A DNA stretch of 64,000 bases from Obrimoposthia wandeli. Taxonomy: Eukaryota. Made by a program: the position numbers and the translations under genes. The notes below the pieces were generated by a model. It was given only the letters and a program-made list of their open reading frames with translations. It was not told where the DNA came from and did no database searches. Numbering within the stretch: position 1 is the first letter of the stretch; the number at the start of each line of letters is the position of its first letter. The stretch covers positions 1 through 64,000 of the forward strand of contig CDROCS010000184.1 in assembly GCA_977020255.1 (NCBI GenBank). The letters run 5' to 3'. Shown one piece after another: positions 25,101 to 61,339 of this stretch.

Positions 25101-28100
25101 ATGTTTCATTTTTTAAGATAGTTATGAAAAACATTTTCAAATATAACTAGTAAAAAAATTCTAATTTATTTTATTGCAATTAAATAAATTTAGTTTGTTA
25201 TCTCAGTTACATCAGGTTTTCAAGTTTTCAAGCTATACATTTATAATTCATCACATTTTAGTGCAATTGTTCAGTTAAAAAGTTGATCGTACTACTGTTC
25301 AAAATGTATTTCAAGCTAAACTACGATCAAAAGGTCAATGTGGAGCAATAGTATCGAGAGTTCTTCCTTATCTTTATTCAGAAAGTATAGAAAGTGTAGG
25401 AAAACATATCTATGCTGACATTTTGACGATAGCTATTGATGAAATTGAAGAGGAGTACTTGGAATGATAAATGTTCCATGAACCAGTTTATGATCAAAAT
25501 TGGGGAATTTCTATATTAAAAAATAAAGCAATAGAAAATGATTTGAGGACGTACTACGAACAGTTCATTTCATTGAATAAAATATATCTAAAGTATGATT
25601 ACAAACAGATAAATTTGCGATGTTCTGTTAAATATGAAAATAATTTTGAAATTAAAGAAACTATGCTACAATGGCCACAATTGAACAAATGTATCTTGCT
25701 ATTGTACAAAATATGACTAATGAATTTGTGAATATATATATATATATATATATATATAGTAATTTATAGAAAAGGGTCTACACAGAGATGTGGAACATTA
25801 GAAAATTTAGCAAATCTCTGTCACATGCCTATAAGATCTCAAATTATATATATAAATAAATGTAATGTCAACATAATTTACTTGACAGACATTTACGACT
25901 TATAATGAACAATTCTTTTCTGATAGATTCTATTTCACCAAATATGAACTCTTCGTTTATAGATGAGCCTATGAGTAATTACAAAAAACTTCAAATAAGT
26001 TATCAGAAATGTAAATGTAAAAAATTGGAGAGATGATATGAAGTTCTTATACATTCTTATAGCCTGCAATTGATTGGAAAAAGCTTCCACCCATTCCTCA
26101 AGTACGGTGGAATTCAAAAGCTATTTTTACAAAGTTTTAATAGAATCCTGGCGATTAAAATTACAACCAATTTGCAGAATAATACGTAGGCCTTGGTAAA
26201 TTAAGGGTTTAATGATAAAAAATTCAACCAGACTCAGATAAAGAATTTATTAATTGTTTAGGGTCTTTTAGAATGAAAAAAACAATATCTAAATAAACGT
26301 TGGCAATCATTAGCTTCTCCTATCGATATTCTCAGAAGTAATCAAATACCAGAAAGGTCAATAAAAGATGTGAAAGAATTCATGTCAAATGATGTCACTG
26401 ACAAATATCTTTCAAATGGATTTTTTACGTCTAAATTGATCTGTATAGTTAATTGCTGGATATATATATTATACATTATATCACAATGTACTGTATTATC
26501 GTTTATATGTTTCTGGATGACGCTTGTTAATTAAATTTGATTATTTTTATAACTTATTAAGAGTTAAATTTCATTTATCTACCAAACAACTATTGTAAAA
26601 TTCGAAAAAAATCCTTCTTAGTCATAAGTCAAAATTGATAACAAAGAAAAACGAAATAGAACTACCACTAAATTAACCATTACTAACAGAAAGTTCTTTA
26701 TGTAAAACCAAGACATTTAAAACGAAGAATTCATGACAAAAAATAATGAATATCACTACTTTATTATGCAAAGATATAACAAAACGTAACATAAATAAAT
26801 AAAGTAAAAATCTAAATATCAACAAACTATATCTTTTATTTGAGTTTTTCTTTTATAAAACATTGGGAATTATTGCTAGTCGAATTATTTTTTGGCAAAT
26901 AATAAAGTTGTTTATTTGACTAACTACTGAGTTAATCTCAAAGTAAATGAGACCATGGATACAATTTTTATAAACATTTGTAAAATATATTACTATTAGA
27001 AGACTATTGAGATCAGTAAAAGTAAGATCTGATGATAATCTTGAGGCTCTTAATTTCTATAGTATTCCAGGTCTTAGTTGGTGTAGTGCAGTTAAATCTT
27101 TAACGCATAAAGTAGAACTAATACATGATCCAGAAATGTATAATCTTTTTGAAGCCGGTATTAGAGGTATAACTTTGGTCAATAAACATTATTGTTAAAC
27201 CGATGATAGTACATCTCTTCTCTAAATAGATGTAAATAATTTATACGGTTGGGCTTTAAGTCAACCTTTACCACATATGGATTTTAAGTGGGTGTATGAT
27301 AATTTTGATGATATTTTAAATTTAGTTGGAAGCAATAAGGATTTGAGTAAAAACTTATGGGGTTGTCTTGTTGAAATAGATTTACATATACCGGATCGTA
27401 TACATAATAAAGTTGATGATTTACCTTTTGGACCACATAAAATGTGTCCACCAAACTTAAAAACTCCTAAATAACAAATAACGACGTTCAGAAATACAAT
27501 CAAAAGATTGCTGGAAGATCGCTGGAAGGATTGACACCATCCAGGACAGTAAAAAAAGTTAGTTTATAGCCATTGAGGGACTAATTAATAATTGTACATG
27601 ACCGTAAGGATTTATTGATCTATCAGTAGCGGTACACCACAATGTGGGATTGTGTGCTGCTGATTGTGAGATAGGTGATATAAAACACATTTTGGATAAA
27701 GTTAATTATAAAAATATTGTGATTATATGTTTTAATTAAATTGAATAAAGGTGTTATTTTCAGAAAAAAGTTATGTTTTGCCAACTACTATCTAGCGATA
27801 AGCACTAAAGAGACTGAAAGGATGAGTTTAATTATTACAAAAGAGTGCCTTTAATTTTATCCATAACATTTTGGCTACTTCGAACCCTGTGTGTTTTGCG
27901 CTATTTGGGTTTCGTTTGACGACAAACCCAGACCCAGGAAAAATTATTTTGTCAACTGGGGTTGGTCGATCTAGTTACAATATAGTAAAAGCATCTGGTT
28001 TAGCTGGGCCCAGTTGACTAATTGAAAGTTGATCTGATGCAGTGACTGAATCGCCAGAATTGGGAAAAGGCAAGTTCAGTATCTGATATGCGTCGATTTC

Positions 28101-31100
28101 TAGAAAATTTCTAAAATATTTTCAAATTTTTATGCTATTAGAAGTCAATTTTAAGATTATGATAATTAGCAGATAAAATTAGATGCCGGAAATAGTAATA
28201 CTATACCAAATATCGTTTATAAGTTAAGGAGTTCCAAAATTACTGCTCGATCGAATACACACACAACATGACCACTCATGCAAATCCTTGATTGTAAGTG
28301 TATTTTACACTATTTTGTGTTTTATATATTTATGTAAAGGATTTATTTAGATTACATCCATGGTTTAGTTCAACTTGAAATACATTTTCAGGTAAAGTAA
28401 ATTTCTATGAAATATAAGCTGAGGGAATCATGAGTCAAATGACGTCTTGTTCAAATTGAGCATATCAGATGACCGGTGTTAAGATTACATTGATATTTAA
28501 AATTATATCTAATAACTAATTTTTGGCGCATTTATCTGTCTTCAACCAATTTGTGATAATGCCTCGGTAAAACTGATTTGATAATGTCGAGTTATTGCAC
28601 TTTTTAGCATTGTACTTGACGTTATTCAATGATTTTTAAGTTAGTTGTGATTTCTGCTTCTAAAACGATAAAATTGAATGACAAATTCTATTACTCAAGA
28701 ATTTGTTTATAAAATCTTTCTCCTAAATCAAAAGATATAAAAATGAGTCTTGCCAGCATCCTTTGATCGAGTCATTCGGTCTGGACGTCGCTGACGTCAC
28801 GGCTCTACTTCTTCACCATCGAGGGCGTGACCAAGACCACTACTCGGTATCGAGTGGCGTGATTTTACTGATCAAACAGGCGTACCGGCATGATGTTGGA
28901 CCACCAACTCCGACGGATCCGCGTCAGAACATGTCGCCACAACGGCTTCTTTCAACAACCATCAGTGCGACAGCAACGACTACTTCATTTCCGCCTTGTT
29001 GAGTGATCAGACGCCGCTCATACGATGTCGACCCAAACTGATGACAAGCTGCCCTCCATCAAGCTCCTCTCGGCTCTCTGCCTCAACAGTCGTCCTTATC
29101 TTTGGAGCGCCAGTTCTGGGAAGAGTTCCAGCGTGAATTCCTACGAACTCCACGACGGCGCAACATGGAACAAGGCGGAAATCTTCCCCGTCAGTTGGTG
29201 GACACCAAGAAATTCGTCCCCGTGTGAAAAGCGTAAGAATCAAAAGGAGCGGAAGCAGAAAATATTGGAAGCAATGCTTGCCGAGAGAGAAAAGAGAGAG
29301 AGCATCAAGAGAAGCAAAAAGCAGAAGTAGCAAACTCCAAGAAGGAGAAGGAGCAGATGAAGAACAAGCTGAAGAAAGAGAGAAGAGATTTACGAAAGAC
29401 GGTGGAGTCAATGAACTTCTTTAGTGTTGTGTTGGCAACTGAAGAGAGTTTGAAATCTGTGGAGTTAAGAAAAGCCGATATTAAGAATGATGTCGAGACG
29501 ATCTGCCAAAAACTGAAGATGGAAGAATTGATGGAACTTAACAAATCTCTCAAGAAGGTGGCCAACGAAGTAGAATGTCTGCAGATTATTCGCAAACAGT
29601 CGTGAAAGTCGTCAAAGAAATTATTTTTGTAGTTTAATATAAACATGTTTTTAAATATTTTACCTTTATTTATTTTTATAATTCAGAATTAACAGAATCT
29701 TTGTATTTGTTATAAACAGTAATATATTAGCTTTATATGTTTAAAGGGACAAACCATCATTCTATTTTGAATAGCCGCTTTGGCACCTCAATATTGAAAT
29801 TCGCGATAGAGAATATAAACTTTAATAAATATTTACAACAATAAAAATATATGGCGCTAACATCAAATAACTGTATTATTCATGACTCAAAACCGCTTCT
29901 TGTTTTTCGTAGATTTTTTACATTTTTCAACAATGTTACAGTTTCTTAATATTTATCAGTGTATTGTTGTAAAGATTCAGAACATAAATTTCAAATATTC
30001 CATCACTCTCATTGTTATTTGCAAAATTCTTGACCAATCTGCTGTCACCAGCGTTGCTGCATTATGAGGCTTCAATAAATGTTCATTTGTACTAGACGTT
30101 TATTAAATTAATTAAAATTCTGGCGGATTTGTAAAAAAAATTAAACGCTTTACTTGCTAACTTAGAATATAAAAAAGTAAATAATTTTTAAATTAAGGAA
30201 ACTATCCTACAATGGTCACAATTGAACAAATGTTTCTTGCTATTGTACAAAATATGACTAAATAATTTGTGAATATATATATATATATATATATAGTAAG
30301 TTATAGAAAAGGCTCTAGACAGAAATGTGGAACATTAGAAAATTTAGAAAATCTCTGTCGCATGCCTATAGGATCTCAAATTATATATATAAATAAATGT
30401 AATGTCAACATAATTTACTTGACAGACTTTTACGACTTATAATGAACAATTCCTTTTCGACTGATTCTATTTCACCGAATACGAACTCTTCGTTTATAGA
30501 TGAGCCTATGAGTAATTACAAAAAACTTCAAATAAGTTATCAGAAATGTAAATGTAAAAAATTGGAGAGATGATATGAAGTTCTTATACATTCTTATAGC
30601 CTGCAATTGATTGGAAAAAGCTTCCACCCATTCCTCAAGTACGGTGGAATTCAAAAGCTATTTTTACAAAGTTTTAATAGAATCCTGGCGATTAAAATTA
30701 CAACCAATTTACAGAATGGGCCAATAATGGTTTAATGATAAAAAAATTCAACCAGACTCAGAAAAAATTTTATTAATTGTTTAGGGTCTTTTAGAATGAA
30801 AAAAACAATATCTAAATAAACGTTGGCAATCATTAGCATCTCCTATCAATATTCCCAGAAGTAATCAAATACCACAAAGGTCAATAAAAGTTGTACAAGA
30901 ATTCATGTCAAATGATGTCACTGACAAATATCTTTCAAATGGATTTTTTACGTCTAAATTGATCTGTATAGTTAATTGCTGGATATATATTATACATTAT
31001 ATCACAATGTACTGTATTATCGTTTATATGTTTCTGGGTGACGCTTGTTAATAAAATTTGATTATTTTTATAACTTATTAAGAGTTAAATTTCATTTATC

Positions 31101-34100
31101 TACCAAACAACTATTGTAAAATTCGAAAAAAAATCCTTCTTAGTCATAAGTCAAAACTTATAACAAAGAAAAACGAAATAGAACTACCACTAAATTAACC
31201 ATTGACTAACAGAAAGTTCTTTATGTAAAACCAATACATTTAAAACGAAAAATTCATGACAAAAAATAATGAATATCACTACTTTATTATGCACAGATAT
31301 AACAAAACGTAACATAAATAATTAAAGTAAAAATCTAAATATCTACAAACTATATCTTATATTTGAGTTTTTCTTTTAAAACATTCTTTTGTTGCTAGAC
31401 ACTTTCAAATTTTCAATTACGTTTAAAGTGTTAAAAAATATTTATCAACATTGTATTTTATCAATGGTGATTCTTCTATTATTTAATCTTTATTGAGTCA
31501 ATGTAAAAAATAATTATAAAGTATCTTATTGCATTTTCTCTAAATATTTTAGATATATTCCTCGTTTGAAATTTAATTCATCATGTGTACTTAGTAATAT
31601 AAATTAATATACACTTATGAAAATTCAATACACGAAGGCTTTCTGAGTGTTTTATTATATATAAATTATAAATATTATACACCGATAATCAAGAGTTAAT
31701 CTAAATGCAAAATTTACACTTTCATTTTTTAAAAAAACTCCTTTGTTATCCTCTTTTTTGGGGTTATGAATTAAAAAGATAATATCAAACTGCGATTTGT
31801 GAATATCTTGCCGTTGTTTATAAAAATGACAGTTTTAATTCATATAAGCTGCAGAACATAATGAAAAAAAACGTTTTCATATTCGTAATTCGTGATTTTA
31901 ACTAAAAATATTATTAGCAGGTCATAATTTCTCTACGCTGACCTTGATAAGGACACCCCCGCTAACCTTGACAACCTTGTTGTCGGCCTTGGATTCACTG
32001 TCCTCATCGTCTTTGGTGTCGGTCTTCTGGTAGTAGCTGTCGTTGATGGCCTTGTAGATATTCTCGATCTCTCGCATCAGTTTCTTGGGGCGTCCTCGCG
32101 GTCTCTTCAGTATGCTGCTGTTGCTGGCCCCGTTAGTTCGCATGAGCCCATTGCTGGCCTTGAGTCGTTGTGCAATAGACTCATCCTCGACTGCTGCTGC
32201 TGCTGCTGTCGCTGCCAGTGCCAGAGTAGGTGCACACGAAGAAGTCCGATCCTCGTGGTCATCTGGCTCGGACCGGGTCTGTTTCAGTCGCACACACGAC
32301 CGGTCGCCTTCTTTCAGCCTCGAGCGCCGCAGCTTTGCTATGACAGACAGAGAGGAATGATTTTTAATGGAAATTTTCTACTTATATTTGACAAGAATAC
32401 AAAAGTATAATTATGACATCAAGGATTGCGATTATTTGACAGCTTGACTAAAGATGAAGCCAATGTTTTCTCTTTTTCTCAGTTCAACGGTGATATTTAC
32501 ATCTGTACTTGACAAATATGAAACATTTTGCTCTTGTTGGTGATTAAAGGTGATCCACATAACCACACGTTTTTAAACAAAAACAGAAATGTTTCACGAA
32601 GTAGCTTTTAAGTCTATTATACTCAAGGATATAATAAGGGAATTAAATAACAAAGTAAGAATAAAGCAACATTCACCTTGAAGTTAGTTTCATCCATTGA
32701 ACTATATTTTTCGCTGATTTAATAAACTGTAATACTGATATCCTAGTTTTAATTATTATATGTAATTGCTAATTCTTCAGATTTTAAATGAATATTGTAA
32801 CAAAGACAAAAGCTTACCAAGCATTATAAAAGCGATTGTCTAGTAAAAAAATCAAATAAAAGCAGTTGTTAATAAAAACCAGAATTTTTTTATTTAATGC
32901 TAGGTTGCATTATTTAATTTTAATCAATCCATAAATATTTTCGCAATTTGTAAGTAATATTTTTTATATATTGTTAAATTATATTGCTAAATATTGTTAT
33001 TTATTAATTAGGTATTGGAAAAAATAGCCATGTCAGCGGGCAAGAACTTATTGTAGAACCAAATCAAATGTTCGAAGGATGGAAATGCAGCTGTATGTAA
33101 CATGTGCCAACAAACCGTAAATTGTGCTGGTGGGAGCACAACTGTCTTGCATTGTCATCTCCAAAGTCGACATAAAATTAATATTTTGAAAAGAGAAACA
33201 GTTGAAATTGAAAATGATGATAATGCAGTAGCTAGTTGTTCGAAAACCATATGCATTACTTACATCACAAATGATATGAAGACTCGTTCACGCATCTCCA
33301 ACTATTTCATTAAAACTATTGACGATTCATTTCCAACAATTTTGGCTCAACTGCCAGCCAGATATTGTTTTATAATTTAAGAAAATTTGTATATCATACG
33401 ATCTCCAGAACTTATTTAGATCAAAAGGATATAAGGATATCCCAAAGTCACCAACCACGATTAATAAAATTGTTTTTCAGATTGGTTTCAAAATACGTCA
33501 GCAAGCAATAATGAGATATGATGTGTTTTTACGAGCTCATTTCAAGAATCTAAAGAGCTAAAACAATAAAATAAAAAGAAGTTTTATTGTTTCATAAAGT
33601 CATTTATTTTGTATTGCTAATTTTTTGTTATACGAAACGTGTATTATGTGTATTTATTATTCATGTTTTGTAATTAAAAATTGAAATATGTATATGTGAT
33701 TTTTTCTTTAAATAAATTAAGTTGGAATTAATGGTTTGCTTTTTTACTTTTTCATATTTTTCACTTTTATACTAGATATTTAAGCTTTACTACAATTTAA
33801 CGGTAAACCGGTTTTAACCAGAAAAGTTACCGAAAACTGGTATTTTCGCATTCCGGTAAATTTGGGACCCCTAATTAGGACGCTTGAAGATAACCTTAAA
33901 ATGAAATGCCCAAAATGGGTGTCAAATATTGTAAAAATCTGTTTAATTTAATGCCAATCGATTGTTAGAAGTAATATTAGGAAGAAAGCCATGAAAAATT
34001 TCTACAAATCAAAAAATCGTGTAGATCCTATTACTGCATTTATATTTATGTTACAGTAAATACAAAGAAATATTGCATTTTTCTGTTTTATTTGCATAAA

Positions 34101-53330: not shown

Positions 53331-53626
53331 ATATTTTTATAAAACTAATTGTAACATAATTTAGAAATCGAGTTTTCTGAATTTAGAAATTTAACCATTT
53401 TTTTCAAGAAGGACAAGCTTTCATTCCATGTCAATTTTATATGTGTAAAATAGCTATTTCAGTCTGTGTTTGCAAAATATAAATAAAGTGAAAGATGATT
53501 TCGGGTAACAATTGTCGATATAGTCTGAAATATATTTAATCTAAATTTTTAATCTGAAAGGAAAACTCCGAAATTATTTTGAGAAATTTATCTATTTGTG
53601 ATAAAAACTGAAAATCATTAAAATTA

Positions 53627-55690
53627 TGTTTTCTATCGTTTATATTATTCAGTTTAAAATAGTAATACTTAAACAAATAATTGCAAGTGGGATAATTCCG
53701 GTTTCTGATTACATAACTCTCTCCTTCTCTATTCAAATTTGCACTTCTTCAGCCATTCGATTCTTCTAGAGAGTATTCCTCTTAGAAACTTAATTGATAC
53801 TTGTCGTGAACTCAAAAATTATATTATTATATATGGGCCTTCATACAGATCACTATCATTATTTTTTTATTGGATCCTTTTTAATAAGCACCTTTTCATT
53901 TACTTCAAATATCCTTTCTCCTCTTCTTTCATTATCTAACTTCTTTAACTTTTCAGCTGCGATTTGTTGATCCTTTTTTACGTCTTGAATGATATCAACT
54001 TGGTTTTCTAAATGCTTTGGTTGTCGTCTAGGATTTTGACAAATTGGATCAGCAATAGTCTCAATCCTATGATTGAAAATTTTGGTTTTTCTTAGATCAA
54101 ATTTAGAACACATAAATATTTTCCCAAACTCCTAAACATAATGTCCTAGAATTAAGTCTCTATCACATTTTATAGAATTACATATTTTATCTGTTCTTTC
54201 TTTTATCATGCAAGACGAGTCCAAACAACATACTTCCTGAAGCTTTATCCCAAATATTTTTATTGTATCAATTCTACAAATAAAATCTGGTTTAATTTTT
54301 TCTGCAACGAGTATTTCCTAAAACTTTCTACTTTCTATTTCATAACACTTTAGTATTAAACCTACCTAAAGGCTGTTGATGACTATTCGAAAAAATTCCA
54401 CTCAGATATAAATTACTTTCTCATTTTGTGACATCCTACATTTTTCCAACAATCCTTACTCATTACAGTAACTGATGATTCGGAGTCACACAGCATTTTC
54501 TCATCTACATCATTAATCTTCATTATACTCCATTCACGATCATCATTCTTCATATACATCTTTTCATTCAGCTTTGGTTCTATATGCTCGATCCCACCGA
54601 CGGAATGTGAGCAATGTGATCGCTCACGTTTCCCTGATGAACATCATGTATTATCATGTCTTTATTATAACAACCTTCTACATCTTCATTATTTTCTCCC
54701 ACTTCTTCTGTTATACAAAGTACCTTTGAAGTTTTTTGTGGGGTTTTTAAAAAATAGCAGCTGTTGAAATTGTGACCTTCTTTTCGCAAATCAAAAATTT
54801 GTGATTGAGAGGACATTGATTTCGGAAATTACCTTTTTCACCACAACACAAAAATGCTCCTTTTTGTGACAGGCAGTCCCTTGGCTAAGTTATATATTTT
54901 TTTAGCTATTTGTTTTAATGAAAACCTTGGCATTGATCTTCTATTATTTTGATTTTGGGCATTTCTATTTATGTATATATTTTTTTCTTCATTAACATAT
55001 CTTCTTTCTTACTGAAGTACTAGTACTGATACTGGGTGTTTCTTTCTATTATTTGAGAAATGACAGTTGTCAGGATGGTTGTATTATATTTTTTACTGTA
55101 TTTGCATATGTATTCTGAACTTATGCACGCTCGTTTTTCTTTTTCTCAATTTCGCTATAAACCTTTGCCAACGCCTCTATTTCTTCTTTTGGCATTTGCG
55201 ATTTTAATTAGAACTGCTCATGAAGTTTTTCACTTCTTACTCTTTAGTTAATAAAGCTCATCTTTGCTAACATTATTTTATATCATGGTCTCAACGAGTT
55301 TTTTTAACTCTAATGCTGAGCGCTGAGAAACATTCGCCTTCTACTTGCTTCACTTTTTCGAGTTCGCAAATTTTGTCACCTATGGATATTTTTTCTAGGA
55401 AAGTTTCTTCAAACCATTTTTGACTTCGATTTCTGAATTTACCCTTTTACTGCCATTCTTCCATAATCAAATCAAATACATTTCAATTATTAGTTTCATT
55501 TGAGTCGACCCATTCTCATATATTTTAACCATTTTTCACCTTCCTTTGAACTCATTCCATTGTATCTTCTTATTTTGTACTGAAACATCATTCTTTGCTC
55601 TTTTGGCATAGTCTCGAGAATATTCTTCTTTGATTGACTTCTAGTCACTACATTTATTTCGGCGTGGTCGCCATTTATGTTTTCTATCGT
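53627..55690 (-). mobile_element. Internally deleted Ty3/gypsy LTR retrotransposon
   Basis: PBS-like TGGCGACCAC (55673 down), decayed gag with CCHC knuckles (CCGEKGNFRNQC), protease MLCDSESSVTV, short RT start, integrase tail YEGPYII, PPT 53717-53730, then TG-starting 3' LTR 53713-53627. Confidence 0.85.
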
Positions 55691-56250
55691 ACTATCACTA
55701 CACTATCTATTTTATAATCTTTTGAAAACATTTTCAGTTCCACTACAGTCTTTGGTCTCGTTTCAAGTAACAACACTTTTGCTACTCTACCAGGAACATT
55801 TCTAACCGAATTAGATGAGATAATATCCCGTTTATTACGAGCTACTATTTGTAGACTATCAAAACTGAATTGAAGAGCTTCTTTTTTAGATTCAAAATTA
55901 ATTTTAATAACTTGAAGAAATTTTAATCGATTTTTAAATCTGACTTTGTTATTTTCATATATTACTTTCACTTCTTTATCTATACAATTGTAATAGAATT
56001 TTCCTTTACTATCAAACCCGATCACAACTTTAGTTGTTTTTTCATGATCAACTTCTTTTGTAAACGAAATATGTGAGTTTTTTCTGATAGTAATTGGAGA
56101 ATAATAAAAAGAAAATTCTGTTAAAGCCGCTTCCCATTCTCCTTGGAGATTTATAGAATTTTCCCAATCGATAATAAAGCTACTAGCGTAATTATCTGGT
56201 TGAGTCTTCGGACATCCGTTACTTGGTAAAACCATATACATAGAATTCAT
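55691..56250 (-). CDS. Minor capsid (penton-like) protein, C-terminally truncated
   Basis: MYMVLPSN..P.N..SSF......I.L.GEWE.AL.EF N-terminus typical of Polinton minor capsid ORFs; the stop is supplied by LTR sequence. Confidence 0.7.
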
Positions 56251-57274
56251 ATTATATTAGATGCTGATATCCAAGTTGGGTCTGAATAACCATGCCATTT
56301 AACAAAGTATTGTTTATGTTTACCTGTACCCTTAGATTTTAATATTTTTTGAATACGGAAAACGCTAGGTTTATTTGATATTACTTGTAGTTCTTGCTCG
56401 TAAAATTTACTGTGAACGATATTATTGTCAGCATCTTTAATAGTATACATTATTGGATTACTCTTTTGATCAATTTTACTTATACAAAATATTTCATCGC
56501 TCCAATTCTGATCAAAGTTTTTAATAAATGGAGTAGAGCTAATTTTCGAAATTCGAACATATTCGTTTTTCTTATATTTAGCTTTTTAATTTTATCTTTT
56601 TTATTCCTGTTCATCCAAATGTCCATAGAGTTTTTATTAGTAACATCAACAGGTCTCATTCCCTTGAGACCTCTATGTTCAGAGTGATTATATGCATGTA
56701 TTATTTTAGGTAAAACTTGGATCCATTTTTTATTTCCTTCTTTTGTGAAATACTTTTTTATTCGATCTCTTAGAGTACGATTAAATCTTTCTACTACTGC
56801 TGCTTTGTATTGTGAAAACACAGAGTAATGATTTATATTATTTTGTTTAAATAATGATTGAACTTGCTTATTATAAAATTCTTTTCCTAAATCAGTTTGC
56901 ACATTTTGTGGAATGTCCTCTTTTAATATTTCTTTAATGGCTTCAAGCATAGCTATTGAAGACTTTGCTTTAACTGGAATTGCACGAGCAAACCTGCTAA
57001 ATACATCAATACATGTTAAAATATATCGATATCCCTTATTAATGGAAGAATATGGGATCATCTCCATCAAATCCATTTGCCATAAATTATTAGGACCGAT
57101 GGTTTTGTAATCTCTAGTTGGAAACCTTCTTCTCATCGGCTTGTTCAGACTGTAGGCTAACTGATCGCTCAGCCATTTCTGCATTTTCTTGTAATTTTGT
57201 TTTGTTCTTTTTGCTAATTTTGAAACTCCTGTGTAGCTAATTGGATCTTTTGGATTGAACCATATCTTCTCCAT
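56247..57274 (-). pseudogene. RVE integrase with C-terminal chromodomain, one frameshift at A5 run 56583-56587
   Basis: WQMDL..YILTCIDVFSRF..QTDLGKEF..VERFNRTL (D-D-E); continues FKxGxxVRIS-like KNEYVRISK..NWSDEIF..FYEQELQ..YFVKWHGY..TWI; ATGA overlap with the capsid ORF. Confidence 0.92.
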
Positions 57275-57360
57275 TAAAACAATTTGAATAGAAAGAAAAT
57301 TTAAGTTTAGGTAAAGAAGGCCTAGCACCCATATCTTTAGCTGATTTTAGAAATAATTGT

Positions 57361-57870: not shown

Positions 57871-58517
57871 TTATTTTTTATAATTGTTCTCTATTTGTTT
57901 ATAAACAGTTACTCCCTTAGAATTAAATATGTCTGTTAAAACACGTAAATCATCTGGGCAAGCTTGTGTAAAGTCAATAAATATATACCCATGTGCTTGT
58001 TTAGCAGCATCGTGGAATGAATCAACTAGAAAGTTCTTATTTTGAGGCAATGCCTGTCTGGCCACAAAATCAACAACTGTTTGATCTCTAGGATTTTTAA
58101 ATAAAACTAAGTAATGTACATTAAGATTTCTTGTTCTATGGTGACCTCCTTGGTGAAACAGATTTTGAGTGATAAATATAACTGTAACTTCACGATGTCT
58201 TGCAATCTTTGTAAATAAATTATTAAAGTCCGATTCCTTGTTAGCCTCCTCATACAAATCATCATTATTATTACATCTTCTTTTTTCAATCTTTCACACC
58301 AATTTGCATCAAATCCTTCAATAAATTTTATACCCTTCAACTTGCAAACTTCTGTTTTGGTTAACCCGCTTTCCCCTCCTCCACCATGATGCCAATAAAT
58401 ATTTTTGAAACTAGATTTGAAAAGAGATTCATTTTGCAACAATTTACAGACGAAATGTGTCTTTCCACTTCCACTTGGGCCAACTATTTGAAATACAGCA
58501 TTATTATTTAGCTCCAT
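57871..58517 (-). pseudogene. FtsK/A32-like genome packaging ATPase, frameshift at about 58265
   Basis: Walker A GPSGSGKT, Walker B VII.DDL split by a 1-nt loss, LFTKIARH..ITQNLF..RT..LN.HY..LFKNPRD..YIFIDF. Confidence 0.92.
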
Positions 58518-58554
58518 TGCATATACTCTTTCATTTTTAATATTGTTTATATTA

Positions 58555-58797
58555 TCATAGAAGTTTCCTTATTGAAATGTACAATGTTAGAGCTATTGTA
58601 GATGAAATACAAAAATTAATTAATGAATATTTGGCTATAATTTTATTTATTTGTGTACGATTTCTAAATTCTTGAATAACGTGTGATCTAACCAATATTT
58701 CAATGTTCTCTCTTGTTATATCATTATTTTTTAATTCTGATAAAATTTCTTTACCCCTAATGTTTCCAGAAAATATTTCATCGGCAAGCCGATCCAC
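58555..58797 (-). CDS. 80-aa hypothetical protein with C-terminal hydrophobic helix
   Basis: Fills the gap between TBP-like gene and ATPase; GTG start uncertain. Confidence 0.45.
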   Translation of the reverse strand: MDRLADEIFSGNIRGKEILSELKNNDITRENIEILVRSHVIQEFRNRTQINKIIAKYSLINFCISSTIALTLYISIRKLL

Positions 58798-58807
58798 TTC
58801 ATTGTCT

Positions 58808-59349
58808 CTATTTATTCATTTGAAACAATAAGTTTAAACGGGTTTGTTTATAGAAAAAAGATAACAAGATGTAATAAGATATATTTTCTAAAATCAAATC
58901 AACTATGTCTGGATAATCAAAGTTTTTCAATCCCAATATCATAACTTTACCACTGGAAAATATATTTACACATAGCGGTTTAAACTTCAAATAACTGAGA
59001 GCAGGAAAAATTTCTGGTTTAAACATGCATTCTTCTTTCATTTTCTCTGCAGTTTTAAAAAGATTTATCTGTTTCCCGAGATTAGCCGAAATCGTGATTG
59101 ATTGTATTGCAGTGATTTGAATTCCAAATGGTAAATTGAACCCAAGCATTGGTATTTTGCATCCCATAACACGACAATTTCCTAAAGAATTCAATATGAA
59201 AATAAAATAAAAAACTAACCTGTAGGAAAAATAACAACTGTGAAATTGTCAAACTTTTCTACATATTGTCTCGGCTTCCATTCATTGAATGGTAAGTACG
59301 AAACATCATCTTCTGTTCTACCTTTATAATTTATATTTACGAGTTTCAT
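58808..59349 (-). CDS. TATA-binding-protein (TBP)-like protein, 167 aa, join(59349-59220, 59181-58808)
   Basis: Repeat 1: KLVNINY..VVIFPT|GNCRVMGCK. Repeat 2: IQSITISANLGKQINL..FKPEIFPALSY..VNIFSSGKVMILGLK. A 38-nt GTTAGT..CTTTAG intron removes a stop and restores the IFxxG motif. Confidence 0.85.
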
Positions 59350-59352
59350 TAG

Positions 59353-59387
59353 ACTGAAATTGTATTCTGTAAAATCTTCTTTATATA
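59353..59387 (-). promoter_or_regulatory. TATA box plus Inr of the TBP-like gene
   Basis: TATATAAAG (59387-59379) with TCAGT (59357-59353) 30 nt downstream, ATG at 59349. Confidence 0.6.
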
Positions 59388-59527
59388 TGTCTGAACCTGC
59401 TTTTTTATTGCACGTTTCTTGTAATTATCTTGCAAACCTATTATAATTGGATGATATATTTAGTCCAATCAAATTCAATGCTTTTGTTATATTAACCAAT
59501 GAGATTCATGTTTTTGTTAGAAATTAG

Positions 59528-59563
59528 TATAAAAGAATGCGCCATTGGAGGACAAATCACAGT
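59528..59563 (+). promoter_or_regulatory. TATA box plus Inr-like site of the divergent plus-strand gene
   Basis: TATAAAAG at 59528-59535, TCACAGT about 30 nt downstream, in-frame ATGs at 59566 and 59596. Confidence 0.55.
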
Positions 59564-59595
59564 AAATGCATTCATATCAAAGACAATTATCAACG

Positions 59596-60047
59596 ATGGA
59601 CGATAGCCAACGGGTATTAGGCGATGACGAAGAAATGTTTGAAGAATCGGATAAGGATATGTATGAAGAAGTGAAGAAGTAAACATTGTTTTTAATCAGT
59701 TTCCTTATTTTAGAATGGATAAAATATGTGTAGCAAATTTTTATTATCCAGAAAGAATTTCAAAAGGAAAACTGTGTAATATATTAAAGAGGCATCAAAT
59801 TATACGAGTTATGAATCCTGTGAAAATATCAAAAGTGGAGAAAAAATATCTCATCGAAATTTTAACAACAACTGATTTTGATCAACTGAAAAATATTTTG
59901 GGATTTTACATTCCTGATTATGTATATGAAGGAAATTGTTTCGAGCTTGAAACTGATCCCAGTCTGGATTTTAAAGATGATCTAGGATATTTGATTGCTC
60001 CAAGAACTATGGAATATCTCAATACGTCTGAATGGATATTTTGCTGA
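59596..60047 (+). CDS. Spliced hypothetical protein, 138 aa, join(59596-59678, 59714-60047), acidic N-terminus
   Basis: MDDSQRVLGDDEEMFEESDKDMYEEVK joins in frame to the MDKICVANF ORF across a 35-nt GTAAAC..TTTTAG intron. Confidence 0.7.
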
Positions 60048-60233
60048 TGACGGGACAATTCAGCCTCTCTGGACTTTGAGTGAAGCCAATATGTTGTTTT
60101 ATGTTTAATAAATATTTTGAAAAATAATTTTGTCTCGTATTTTGTTTTTGCTCCTCTAAATTATATAGATCTGACCGATGTTTTTCGTGCCTGTAGATCA
60201 AGAATGAAGCCCGCCCCGAAGGGGCGGTCGGAG

Positions 60234-60504
60234 NNNNNNNNNNNNNNNNNNNNNNNNNNNNNNNNNNNNNNNNNNNNNNNNNNNNNNNNNNNNNNNNNNN
60301 NNNNNNNNNNNNNNNNNNNNNNNNNNNNNNNNNNNNNNNNNNNNNNNNNNNNNNNNNNNNNNNNNNNNNNNNNNNNNNNNNNNNNNNNNNNNNNNNNNNN
60401 NNNNNNNNNNNNNNNNNNNNNNNNNNNNNNNNNNNNNNNNNNNNNNNNNNNNNNNNNNNNNNNNNNNNNNNNNNNNNNNNNNNNNNNNNNNNNNNNNNNN
60501 NNNN
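60234..60504. other. Assembly gap (271 N)
   Basis: N run flanked by a hairpin and a tandem repeat. Confidence 1.
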
Positions 60505-60610
60505 GTACATCGCCAAGCTAGTCTGTGACCTATATGAGAACGAGATATCCGTACATCGTCAAGCTAGTCTGTGACCTATATGAGAACGAGATATCCGTAC
60601 ATCTGTGACC
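60505..60610. repeat. 46-bp tandem repeat, two copies plus a partial third
   Basis: GTACATCG(C/T)CAAGCTAGTCTGTGACCTATATGAGAACGAGATATCC at 60505 and 60551. Confidence 0.95.
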
Positions 60611-60668
60611 AATGTCGGTCCCGAGCCCTTCGCGCCGATAGGCGCTAAAAAGTTTTAGGGGGGGGGGT

Positions 60669-60754
60669 ACCCCCCTTGTCCTTTAAAACCGTGCATGTGT
60701 GTGGAGTGAAATTTCACTCCACACACATGCACGGTTTTAAAGGACAAGGGGGGT
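60669..60754. repeat. Perfect 86-bp palindrome without a loop
   Basis: 43-bp arm ACCCCCCTTGTCC..GGAGTGAAA followed by its exact reverse complement; centre 60711/60712. Confidence 0.97.
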
Positions 60755-61339
60755 GTGGATTAGACCGGACACATCCATCTACTCTAGTGATTTACAATTT
60801 CTCAAATATTATCAAACACAAGCGTAATCAACACAATTTTTTAAACAAAGTTGAAGATATTACAATGATTTGAATACAACTATTATCCCATTACGGAAAA
60901 ATAATAAATAAACAAATTTATCGAAGAAAATTGCATTATTAACAGACACACAATTACTTTATTTTTTTAAAGATGCTATCGCCTGACATAAGTATTTGAT
61001 CTAGAAACGTTTTTTAATGTATGCAATAAATTTGTTGTTGCTGTTACTGTTTAAATTTATTGAATGTTCGTCTTATATTAATCATATGTATTCAACAAAC
61101 CAAAATAATTAAAGCAGCAGCTTCCAAAATTTTTGGAAGGTGCCCCAGTAAAAAAAGAAAACTTTTGCGTCCCCCCTTAAAAAAATTAGTAACACAATTA
61201 TATTTATTAATTCCAAAGCATTTTTTAATAAACAAATTTCTAACGCAATAAATAGCTTCGTAAAATTATTACTCTTTCAATAATGTTCAATAATTTTATT
61301 TGGAGTTTCAAATTATTTTTTTAACGTGATCCTTTTGAA

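What the first reader, a model, noticed from the sequence alone, without database searches (positions are those of the whole stretch)
59182..59713. Two ultra-short spliceosomal introns (38 and 35 nt) in neighbouring viral genes
Seen: GTTAGT..TTCTTTAG (59219-59182, minus) and GTAAAC..TTATTTTAG (59679-59713, plus). Each contains a stop and a T-rich tract, and its removal yields an in-frame join; the first rebuilds a conserved TBP motif exactly. The ORF track misses both 5' exons. The shortest host intron I found here is 61 nt. Inference: intron-containing genes confined to the putative early/regulatory end of a Polinton, while structural genes are unspliced with ATGA overlap; the size could record a previous host or a host class of tiny introns.
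Basis: partly seen in the sequence, partly recalled or inferred. Interest (0 to 1): 0.75.

Follow-up and report, generated by a model that had tools for sequence, protein, structure and literature searches.

The report
Tiny introns in Polinton virus genes
A decayed virus-like jumping element in an animal-like genome has two neighbouring small genes each interrupted by a very short (38 and 35 base) segment that is likely an intron cut out by the host's splicing machinery, and its relatives carry similar tiny segments in the same set of genes, although such elements are usually described as having intron-free genes of their own.

Summary
Both segments are at the stated coordinates.

Segment 1 (38 nt) is almost certainly a spliceosomal intron. 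It splits a Polinton TBP-like gene exactly between profile positions 43 and 45. A related element (L036) has a 40-nt GT-AG segment at the same codon and phase with an unrelated interior; 71 of 72 loci covering the site lack it.

Segment 2 (35 nt) is probable. A TATA/initiator pair precedes its 5' exon, and chance gave as good a join in 1 of 3000 shuffles. Its gene weakly resembles a predicted single-strand-DNA-binding family whose members carry 41-46-nt introns (16 of 20), at another site. Its 3' ORF has its own ATG.

Tiny introns are a trait of this Polinton clade. They cluster in the accessory end, but one candidate sits in a relative's protease gene. No RNA run was listed, the host intron size could not be checked, and this copy is broken.

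Intron-bearing cargo genes at this position are published for nematode Mavericks, and this scan noted introns in Polintons on other DNA. What is new is introns in virus-lineage genes, present in some relatives and absent in others.

The parts
59220..59349 (-). TBP-like gene, 5' exon (ATG at 59349; 43 codons plus 1 base)
   Evidence: Profile positions 1-43, E 6.6e-15; 40% identity to P0002 1-41
59182..59219 (-). 38-nt GT-AG intron, phase 1 (splicing inferred)
   Evidence: Exact insertion in the family profile; 40-nt segment at the same site and phase in L036 376-415; rank 1 of 414
58808..59181 (-). TBP-like gene, 3' exon
   Evidence: Pfam TBP E 1.4e-11; profile positions 45-157; the family profile hits solved TBPs
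59353..59387 (-). TATA box and TCAGT initiator-like pair ahead of the TBP-like gene (promoter inferred)
   Evidence: expected 0.006 per 216-nt strand from host DNA
59528..59563 (+). TATA box and ACAGT initiator-like pair ahead of gene 2's 5' exon (promoter inferred)
   Evidence: same layout before the 5' exon in 9 of 16 family-A relatives and before the 3' exon in 0 of 16
59566..59678 (+). Gene 2, predicted acidic 5' exon (37 codons plus 2 bases)
   Evidence: no homologue among the loci
59679..59713 (+). 35-nt GT-AG probable intron, phase 2
   Evidence: Rank 3 of 414, 11.5 bits; 1 of 3000 shuffles as good
59714..60047 (+). Gene 2, 3' exon (own ATG at 59715); weak relative of family A, a predicted gp2.5-type OB-fold single-strand-DNA-binding protein
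   Evidence: 17.7 bits, 0 of 999 shuffles; hhalign probability 40%, E 3e-4; alignment; fold of family A
60107..60112 (+). AATAAA, candidate poly(A) signal of gene 2
58555..58815 (-). Open frame without a start codon, weakly matching a frame in L037; probably a decayed accessory gene
57871..58517 (-). A32-type packaging ATPase, broken by a frameshift
   Evidence: 68% and 82% identity in two frames to the L036 ATPase, which hits Pox_A32
56247..57328 (-). Retroviral-like integrase with chromodomain, broken by a frameshift
   Evidence: Pfam rve and Chromo; two frames against L036
55684..56250 (-). First part of a minor-capsid-like gene (name inferred from gene order); ATGA overlap with the integrase stop; the element is cut off after it
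60170..60783 (.). Probable element end: GC-rich hairpin, assembly gap 60234-60504, 46-nt tandem pair, 86-nt palindrome, and an AGT start on the minus strand (Polinton terminus motif recalled)
   Evidence: the partner repeat is not in the window

Best explanation
Two divergent small genes at the end of a Polinton/Maverick element are each interrupted by a 35-38-nt GT-AG segment that the host spliceosome likely removes, which would give a TBP-like protein and a probable single-strand-DNA-binding protein. Shown: the segments, the exact fit of the first in the TBP family, its twin in L036, and 40-46-nt GT-AG segments at fixed sites in three further accessory gene families of related elements. Inferred: a back-to-back pair of host RNA polymerase II promoters (TATA plus initiator) drives both genes as early genes, and unspliced RNA would stop inside the intron. 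The TBP-like product would help transcribe later genes, and the SSB-like product would serve strand-displacement replication. The introns were probably gained by this virus clade in genes of viral descent, since most relatives lack them, and were kept because the proteins are needed. Their small size is a clade trait, set by the short-intron class of its hosts and perhaps by limited genome space. This particular copy is decayed and need not be expressed.
For: Exon 1 = profile 1-43, exon 2 = 45-157, and 120 of 120 relatives have no insert. Of 75 loci found by 3'-exon motifs, 72 cover the site: 71 are continuous and L036 is split at the same codon and phase by 40 nt with GT/AG ends. Its interior identity to the window's is 0.57 against 0.58 shuffled, and the 3' exon 0.68. 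Family A: 16 of 20 copies with 5' flank have a 41-46-nt GTA..AG segment in phase 0 right before the domain, and 4 read through; family B 7 of 7; family C 2 of 2. A matrix from those loci ranks the window's segments 1st and 3rd of 414. In 53.4 kb of host DNA 42 segments reach 10 bits, none reaches 17, and none joins an ATG exon to a 60-codon frame. Shuffling gene 2's upstream region gave any in-frame join in 92 of 3000 and one as good in 1 of 3000. TATA/initiator pairs lie before both 5' exons and not before ATG 59715. The family A model has pLDDT 91, and its top four folds are all gp2.5/Enc34/CP312R-type, three of them described as SSBs, at Z 7.0-7.6 with the next at 5.6.
Against: There is no transcript evidence. 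Segment 2 scores at the low end of the training range (11.0-27.7 bits), its 3' ORF has its own ATG one base after the AG, and its site is about 14 codons upstream of, and in another phase than, the family-A intron. Gene 2's family link is weak (hhalign 40%), and large searches found no relative. A segment at 59421-59463 scores higher than segment 2 yet joins no frame. For families A and B, exon DNA identity is no higher than intron-interior identity (0.61 vs 0.63; 0.71 vs 0.70), so that contrast is uninformative. Many loci are near-copies (23 of 26 non-redundant). Trees do not group the window with L036 (8%, 2% and 0% of bootstrap trees), so single gain, parallel gain or repeated loss are unresolved. 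A fold Z under 8 is only moderate.
Confidence: 0.8

Rival explanations
1. Only segment 1 is an intron. Gene 2 is the 110-codon ORF starting at ATG 59715, and the 35-nt segment is AT-rich leader sequence that happens to have GT and AG ends.
For: ATG directly after the AG; low splice score, no homologue of the 5' exon, and a site that differs from family A; 92 of 3000 shuffles give some in-frame join.
Against: A TATA/initiator pair lies just before ATG 59566 and none before 59715; the upstream frame starts at that ATG and runs exactly to the GT; 1 of 3000 shuffles is as good; several family-A members with a clear intron also have ATG directly after the AG (L007, L013, L001, L020).
Confidence: 0.22
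2. The segments are genomic insertions that broke the genes after integration and are never spliced.
For: The copy is decayed, with two frameshifted core genes; 71 of 72 loci lack the TBP segment.
Against: L036, whose core genes are unbroken as far as its contig goes, has a segment at the same codon and phase with a different length and interior but the same ends. The runs that hold this high-copy family cover both segments. Fixed-site GT-AG segments recur in three other gene families.
Confidence: 0.04
3. The genes are host cargo captured with their host introns, as proposed for nematode Mavericks.
For: Same position between terminus and integrase as nematode cargo (Widen et al.); relatives do carry host-like genes here, such as a dual-specificity phosphatase with a 45-nt candidate intron in L005 and a ubiquitin-conjugating enzyme in L028.
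Against: The TBP-like gene belongs to a family of about 150-aa proteins (1210 hits, cellular TBPs possibly among them) that travels with Polinton ATPase and integrase and is mostly continuous. Family A resembles proteins of large DNA viruses and phage SSBs by fold and has intronless members.
Confidence: 0.08
4. The introns are real, but their length is a relic of a former host with shorter introns, and the present host splices them poorly.
Against: The family reached very high copy number in this host (124,000-153,000 contigs laid per run), which suggests that it worked here; no host intron distribution is available.
Confidence: 0.2

Closest known systems
Nematode Mavericks with intron-bearing cargo (Widen et al., bioRxiv 10.1101/2022.07.12.499685; passages and section 11 read)
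   Same: Intron-bearing genes in a 2-5 kb region between the terminal repeat and the integrase; core genes intronless.
   Different: There the genes are high-GC cargo thought to come from the host (proteases, kinases). Here they are AT-rich genes of viral descent (TBP-like, SSB-like) whose relatives mostly or partly lack the intron, and the introns are 35-46 nt.
Vertebrate Mavericks (Barreat and Katzourakis 2021, PMC8097293; passages read)
   Same: Integrase, ATPase, capsid and protease gene set; mostly decayed genomic copies.
   Different: They report no introns in intact elements and do not list a TBP-like gene in the passages read.
Introners in dinoflagellate Polinton-like elements (PMC12166617; passages read)
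   Same: Spliceosomal introns inside Polinton-type viral elements.
   Different: Those are repeated, young intron-generating transposons in protists. The segments here share no interior sequence beyond composition and sit at conserved sites.
Adintoviruses / MELD viruses with a TBP-like gene (Starrett et al., PMC8502044 and bioRxiv 10.1101/697771; passages read)
   Same: TBP-like genes are labelled in genome maps of related viruses.
   Different: Only figure-legend mentions; no spliceosomal introns are mentioned in the main text.

Membership tests
Major-class (U2) spliceosomal intron | GT at the 5' end, YAG at the 3' end, pyrimidine-rich interior | tested here: met
Major-class (U2) spliceosomal intron | Removal keeps a conserved protein frame without gap or overlap | tested here: met
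   Segment 1. For segment 2 only frame arithmetic.
Major-class (U2) spliceosomal intron | Ends conserved and interior free across diverged homologues | tested here: met
   Segment 1 against L036; no homologous site found for segment 2
Major-class (U2) spliceosomal intron | Branch point | not tested
   TTCAT (segment 1, L036) and TTAAT (segment 2) are visible in the sequence but are common in AT-rich DNA
Major-class (U2) spliceosomal intron | Excised from RNA | not testable with these tools
   No RNA holder listed
Polinton/Maverick | Retroviral-like integrase | tested here: met
   Pfam rve and Chromo
Polinton/Maverick | A32-type packaging ATPase | tested here: met
Polinton/Maverick | Capsid genes and adenovirus-type protease | tested here: inconclusive
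   Only the first part of a minor-capsid-like gene is in the window; major-capsid-like frames (no Pfam hit) and Peptidase_C5 occur in relatives
Polinton/Maverick | Protein-primed DNA polymerase B | tested here: inconclusive
   Not in this truncated copy; not sought in relatives
Polinton/Maverick | [quoted passage not shown] | tested here: inconclusive
   One probable end near 60783, with a gap; no partner repeat among the 25 longest inverted pairs shown
TBP family | TBP repeat(s) | tested here: met
   Pfam PF00352; two stretches against solved TBPs for the family profile
TBP family | Binds TATA DNA | not testable with these tools
   No assay
T7 gp2.5-type SSB | gp2.5-type OB fold | tested here: inconclusive
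   Family A model Z 7.0-7.6, rmsd 2.8-3.6, 100-111 aligned; gene 2 itself was not folded and is only weakly linked
Introner | Repeated, similar intron sequences at unrelated sites | tested here: not met
   Interiors are about as alike as shuffles; only within-family pairs of the loci in hand were compared

The most novel reading that the evidence does not exclude
One Polinton virus clade has repeatedly gained 35-46-nt spliceosomal introns near the 5' ends of its own early genes (TBP-like factor, SSB-like protein and others) and uses host splicing as an early/late switch. The intron length is set by the virus, below the normal minimum of its present host, which makes these natural probes of the smallest intron an animal spliceosome can remove.
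Probability: 0.25. Interest if true: 0.75.

Novelty: new variant of a known kind. Interest (0 to 1): 0.5.

Why it matters
Polinton genes are annotated with intron-blind ORF finders and their own genes are treated as intronless. This clade shows that the accessory end is being mis-annotated: short 5' exons are missed and intact genes look broken. It gives direct sequence evidence that these elements depend on nuclear RNA polymerase II and the host spliceosome. Presence and absence at fixed sites across related elements offers a compact system for studying intron gain and loss, and a conserved TBP-like plus SSB-like early module gives handles on how animal Polintons transcribe and replicate.

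Tried and rejected
- No RNA holder listed. Runs X1-X4 are contigs of one sample and look like genomic DNA. None of the 15 joints shown (529 more hidden) matches either segment, and none of the 40 substitutions shown (77 hidden) hits their GT/AG; neither blank is used as evidence.
- No whole genome is held.
- Gene 2's 3' ORF found nothing in the word-indexed search, the Atlas or the 1.84-billion search.
- Two scans of viral contigs gave no relatives of the TBP-like gene.
- Host genes could not be annotated: 0 of 110 frames hit Pfam, and 3 of 34 (RAC head, BED finger, Tc3 transposase). A scan for short host introns gave no convincing case.
- My first strict filter missed both window segments, which are weaker than the best in relatives.
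- In one search the training set used a 33-nt alternative for L021 instead of 42 nt; one search corrected this with the same ranking.
- A strict TATA..CAGT pattern matched 0 of 22 relatives. I then widened it to allow TCATT, which gave 9 of 16; that pattern was chosen after seeing the sequences.
- Trees on the TBP 3' exon (44 rows), ATPase (23) and integrase (14) did not resolve gain versus loss.
- Among 16 listed family variants in the two genes, 7 are synonymous (4 of 6 in TBP, 3 of 10 in gene 2); too few to use.
- Segment 59421-59463 was rejected: it joins no frame, and its AG differs in about 40% of depth.
- Foldseek against PDB gave no hit at E 0.001, and family A has no shared Pfam family.
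- Paper searches listed no report of tiny introns in TBP-like or SSB-like Polinton genes. Subscription journals, Repbase entries and supplements were not searched or read and could hold such a note.

Full report
Observation. Both segments are present as described: 59219-59182 on the minus strand (38 nt) and 59679-59713 on the plus strand (35 nt). Each starts GT, ends TAG, is T-rich, is 3n+2 long and holds a stop. They lie in two genes that point away from each other across a 216-nt spacer, at one end of a roughly 4.6-kb Polinton-like fragment. The fragment also holds an A32-type ATPase and an integrase with chromodomain, both broken by frameshifts, and the first part of a minor-capsid-like gene that overlaps the integrase stop by ATGA. 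A probable element end lies near 60783 beyond an assembly gap. Public runs of one sample lay 124,000-153,000 contigs each on 57900-60230, so this is a very high-copy family in its host. No listed run is on record as RNA. The host is probably an animal, perhaps an arthropod; this is inferred from composition, transposon remains and promoter motifs, not shown.

Segment 1. The downstream frame is TBP-like (Pfam E 1.4e-11). A profile search returned 1210 proteins, the best 120 mostly about 150 aa. Against a profile of those 120, the upstream frame from ATG 59349 matches positions 1-43 and the downstream frame 45-157. The codon split by the segment is position 44, and 120 of 120 relatives have no insert across this motif. 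Those proteins come from intron-blind gene calls, so I also fetched DNA by motifs of the 3' exon: 75 loci, of which 3 do not cover the site, 71 read through it and 1 is split. The split one, L036, has a 40-nt GT..AG segment at the same codon and in the same phase. Its interior is no more like the window's than a shuffle (0.57 vs 0.58), while the following exon is 0.68 identical. L036's ATPase, integrase and capsid-like frames are unbroken as far as the contig goes. Kept ends with changed length and interior in two elements with clearly diverged proteins (ATPase 68-82%, integrase about 60%) is what a functional intron gives and a random insertion does not.

Tiny introns across the clade. A scan of all 75 loci (252 kb) for short T-rich GT..AG segments that join an ATG exon to a long frame gave 21 candidates, 20 of them in L003-L036 and most 40-49 nt. 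Their 3' frames form families. In family A, 21 copies were found, 1 lacking its 5' part. Of the other 20, 16 have a 41-46-nt GTA..AG segment in phase 0 directly before the domain, with an ATG-led open frame running up to it. Four read straight through, and L028 shows there the same short motif that ends the 5' exon in L026 and L015. Family B has it in 7 of 7 (40-45 nt) and family C in 2 of 2 (45, 46 nt). Some of these are near-copies (23 of 26 non-redundant). L017 and L018, which lack the family-A intron, have a 42-43-nt candidate in another gene. The window's element falls in a fully supported clade with several of these loci by ATPase and integrase, but the branching inside is open. The window and L036 group in only 8%, 2% and 0% of bootstrap trees, so gain versus loss is unresolved. 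Family A folds with pLDDT 91. Its best solved matches are four gp2.5/Enc34/CP312R-type proteins, three described as single-strand-DNA-binding, at Z 7.0-7.6 with the next at 5.6. It has 27 matches at E 0.001 in the viral library, the named ones proteins of large DNA viruses. This is a moderate fold match, not a shown function.

Segment 2. Large searches found no relative of the 110-codon 3' frame. It does match a profile of families A and C at 17.7 bits (0 of 999 shuffles), with hhalign probability 40%, and it sits head to head with the TBP-like gene as family A does in L016, L017, L018, L022, L026 and L028. It reads through the family-A intron site; its own segment is about 14 codons upstream and in phase 2, so it is not the same intron. 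A matrix trained only on other loci ranks segment 1 first (18.8 bits) and segment 2 third (11.5) of 414 candidates in the element. The second-ranked candidate joins no frame. In 53.4 kb of host DNA, 42 segments reach 10 bits and none of them joins frames. Shuffling the upstream region gave any in-frame join with a 25-codon ATG exon in 92 of 3000 trials and one as good in 1. A TATA box with an initiator-like motif about 30 nt later lies directly before each 5' exon, and none lies before ATG 59715. A widened pattern, chosen after viewing the data, finds the same before the 5' exon in 9 of 16 family-A relatives and before the 3' exon in 0 of 16. Against it: the 3' frame has its own ATG, the score is low, and the 5' exon has no homologue. 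I put segment 2 at about 75%.

Confinement and size. One exception: in L007 a 37-nt segment scoring 22.5 bits follows ATG plus two bases just after the major-capsid-like stop. The 27 codons after it resemble the start of adenovirus-type proteases of relatives (E 3e-4 to L039). The contig ends there, so this is a candidate only. The 61-nt host intron could not be verified because no host gene was annotatable, so the previous-host idea is untested. The window's 35 and 38 nt are shorter than the 40-46 nt of the family introns in relatives.

Mechanism. Most likely the host's RNA polymerase II starts at two back-to-back TATA/initiator promoters and the host spliceosome removes one tiny intron from each RNA (inferred). 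Without splicing both frames stop inside the intron (shown by sequence). The products would be a viral TBP-like factor and an SSB-like replication protein (inferred). The introns are best read as gains in viral genes, because 71 of 72 loci lack the TBP one, though repeated loss is not excluded.

What is known. Widen et al. (bioRxiv 10.1101/2022.07.12.499685; passages and section 11 read) describe intron-bearing, probably host-derived cargo between the terminal repeat and the integrase of nematode Mavericks, with intronless core genes. Barreat and Katzourakis (PMC8097293; passages) saw no introns in intact vertebrate elements. PMC12166617 (passages) reports introners in dinoflagellate Polinton-like elements. 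Starrett et al. (passages) label TBP-like genes in figure legends. Term look-ups in PMC11296320, PMC10748475, PMC12220804 and bioRxiv 10.1101/2024.03.25.586562 showed no spliceosomal introns in these elements. Nine searches listed no report of this clade's tiny introns; supplements, Repbase and subscription papers were not seen. This scan's own earlier notes describe introns in Polinton core genes on other DNA; they are unchecked AI notes and gave me the Widen and Barreat leads.

Verdict. A real feature and a new variant of a known kind: tiny spliceosomal introns in the virus-derived accessory genes of one Polinton clade, well supported by comparison but not by RNA. Interest 0.5.

Noticed in passing
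L001, L003-L005, L007, L008, L010-L013, L015-L018, L020-L022, L026, L028 (gene next to the TBP-like gene): A conserved 115-aa domain with no Pfam family, predicted to have a T7 gp2.5-type OB fold; a candidate single-strand-DNA-binding protein of animal Polintons (two copies in L020).
   Followed up: partly
L007 8484-8520: 37-nt GT-AG candidate right after the start codon of a protease-like gene that follows the major-capsid-like gene.
   Followed up: partly
L036 830-869 and 1303-1342; L003, L004, L005, L012, L020, L026: Family B, an unnamed cysteine/tyrosine-rich protein of about 112 aa with a short 5' exon and a 40-45-nt intron in 7 of 7 copies; L036 has three tiny intron candidates within 1 kb.
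   Followed up: partly
L005 3930-4316; L028 225-722 (minus); L036 1665-2168: Host-like genes in the accessory end of relatives: dual-specificity phosphatase (45-nt candidate intron), ubiquitin-conjugating enzyme, RING finger.
   Followed up: no
window 25279-28100 and 30170-31381: A second, more decayed region with peptides that recall a protein-primed polymerase (recalled motif, no Pfam hit); about 1.2 kb of it is repeated 4.5 kb away at 90-99% identity.
   Followed up: no
window 60505-60783: Two tandem 46-nt units and a perfect 86-nt palindrome (60669-60754) beside an assembly gap at the probable element end; a real hairpin or an assembly artefact.
   Followed up: no
window 53540-55700: Broken frames that recall an LTR retroelement replace the rest of the Polinton (recalled resemblance, no convincing Pfam hit).
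   Followed up: no
window 57900-60230: Copies in the host fall into subfamilies; many contigs leave the window's sequence after 59675, just before segment 2, and differ near 60003. G>A and C>T are the commonest differences.
   Followed up: no
window 29237-29602: Fragment with a ribosome-associated complex head domain (Pfam E 2e-10), apparently without introns and broken; possibly a processed pseudogene.
   Followed up: no
L028 5610-7684: Two minor-capsid-like genes in tandem.
   Followed up: no
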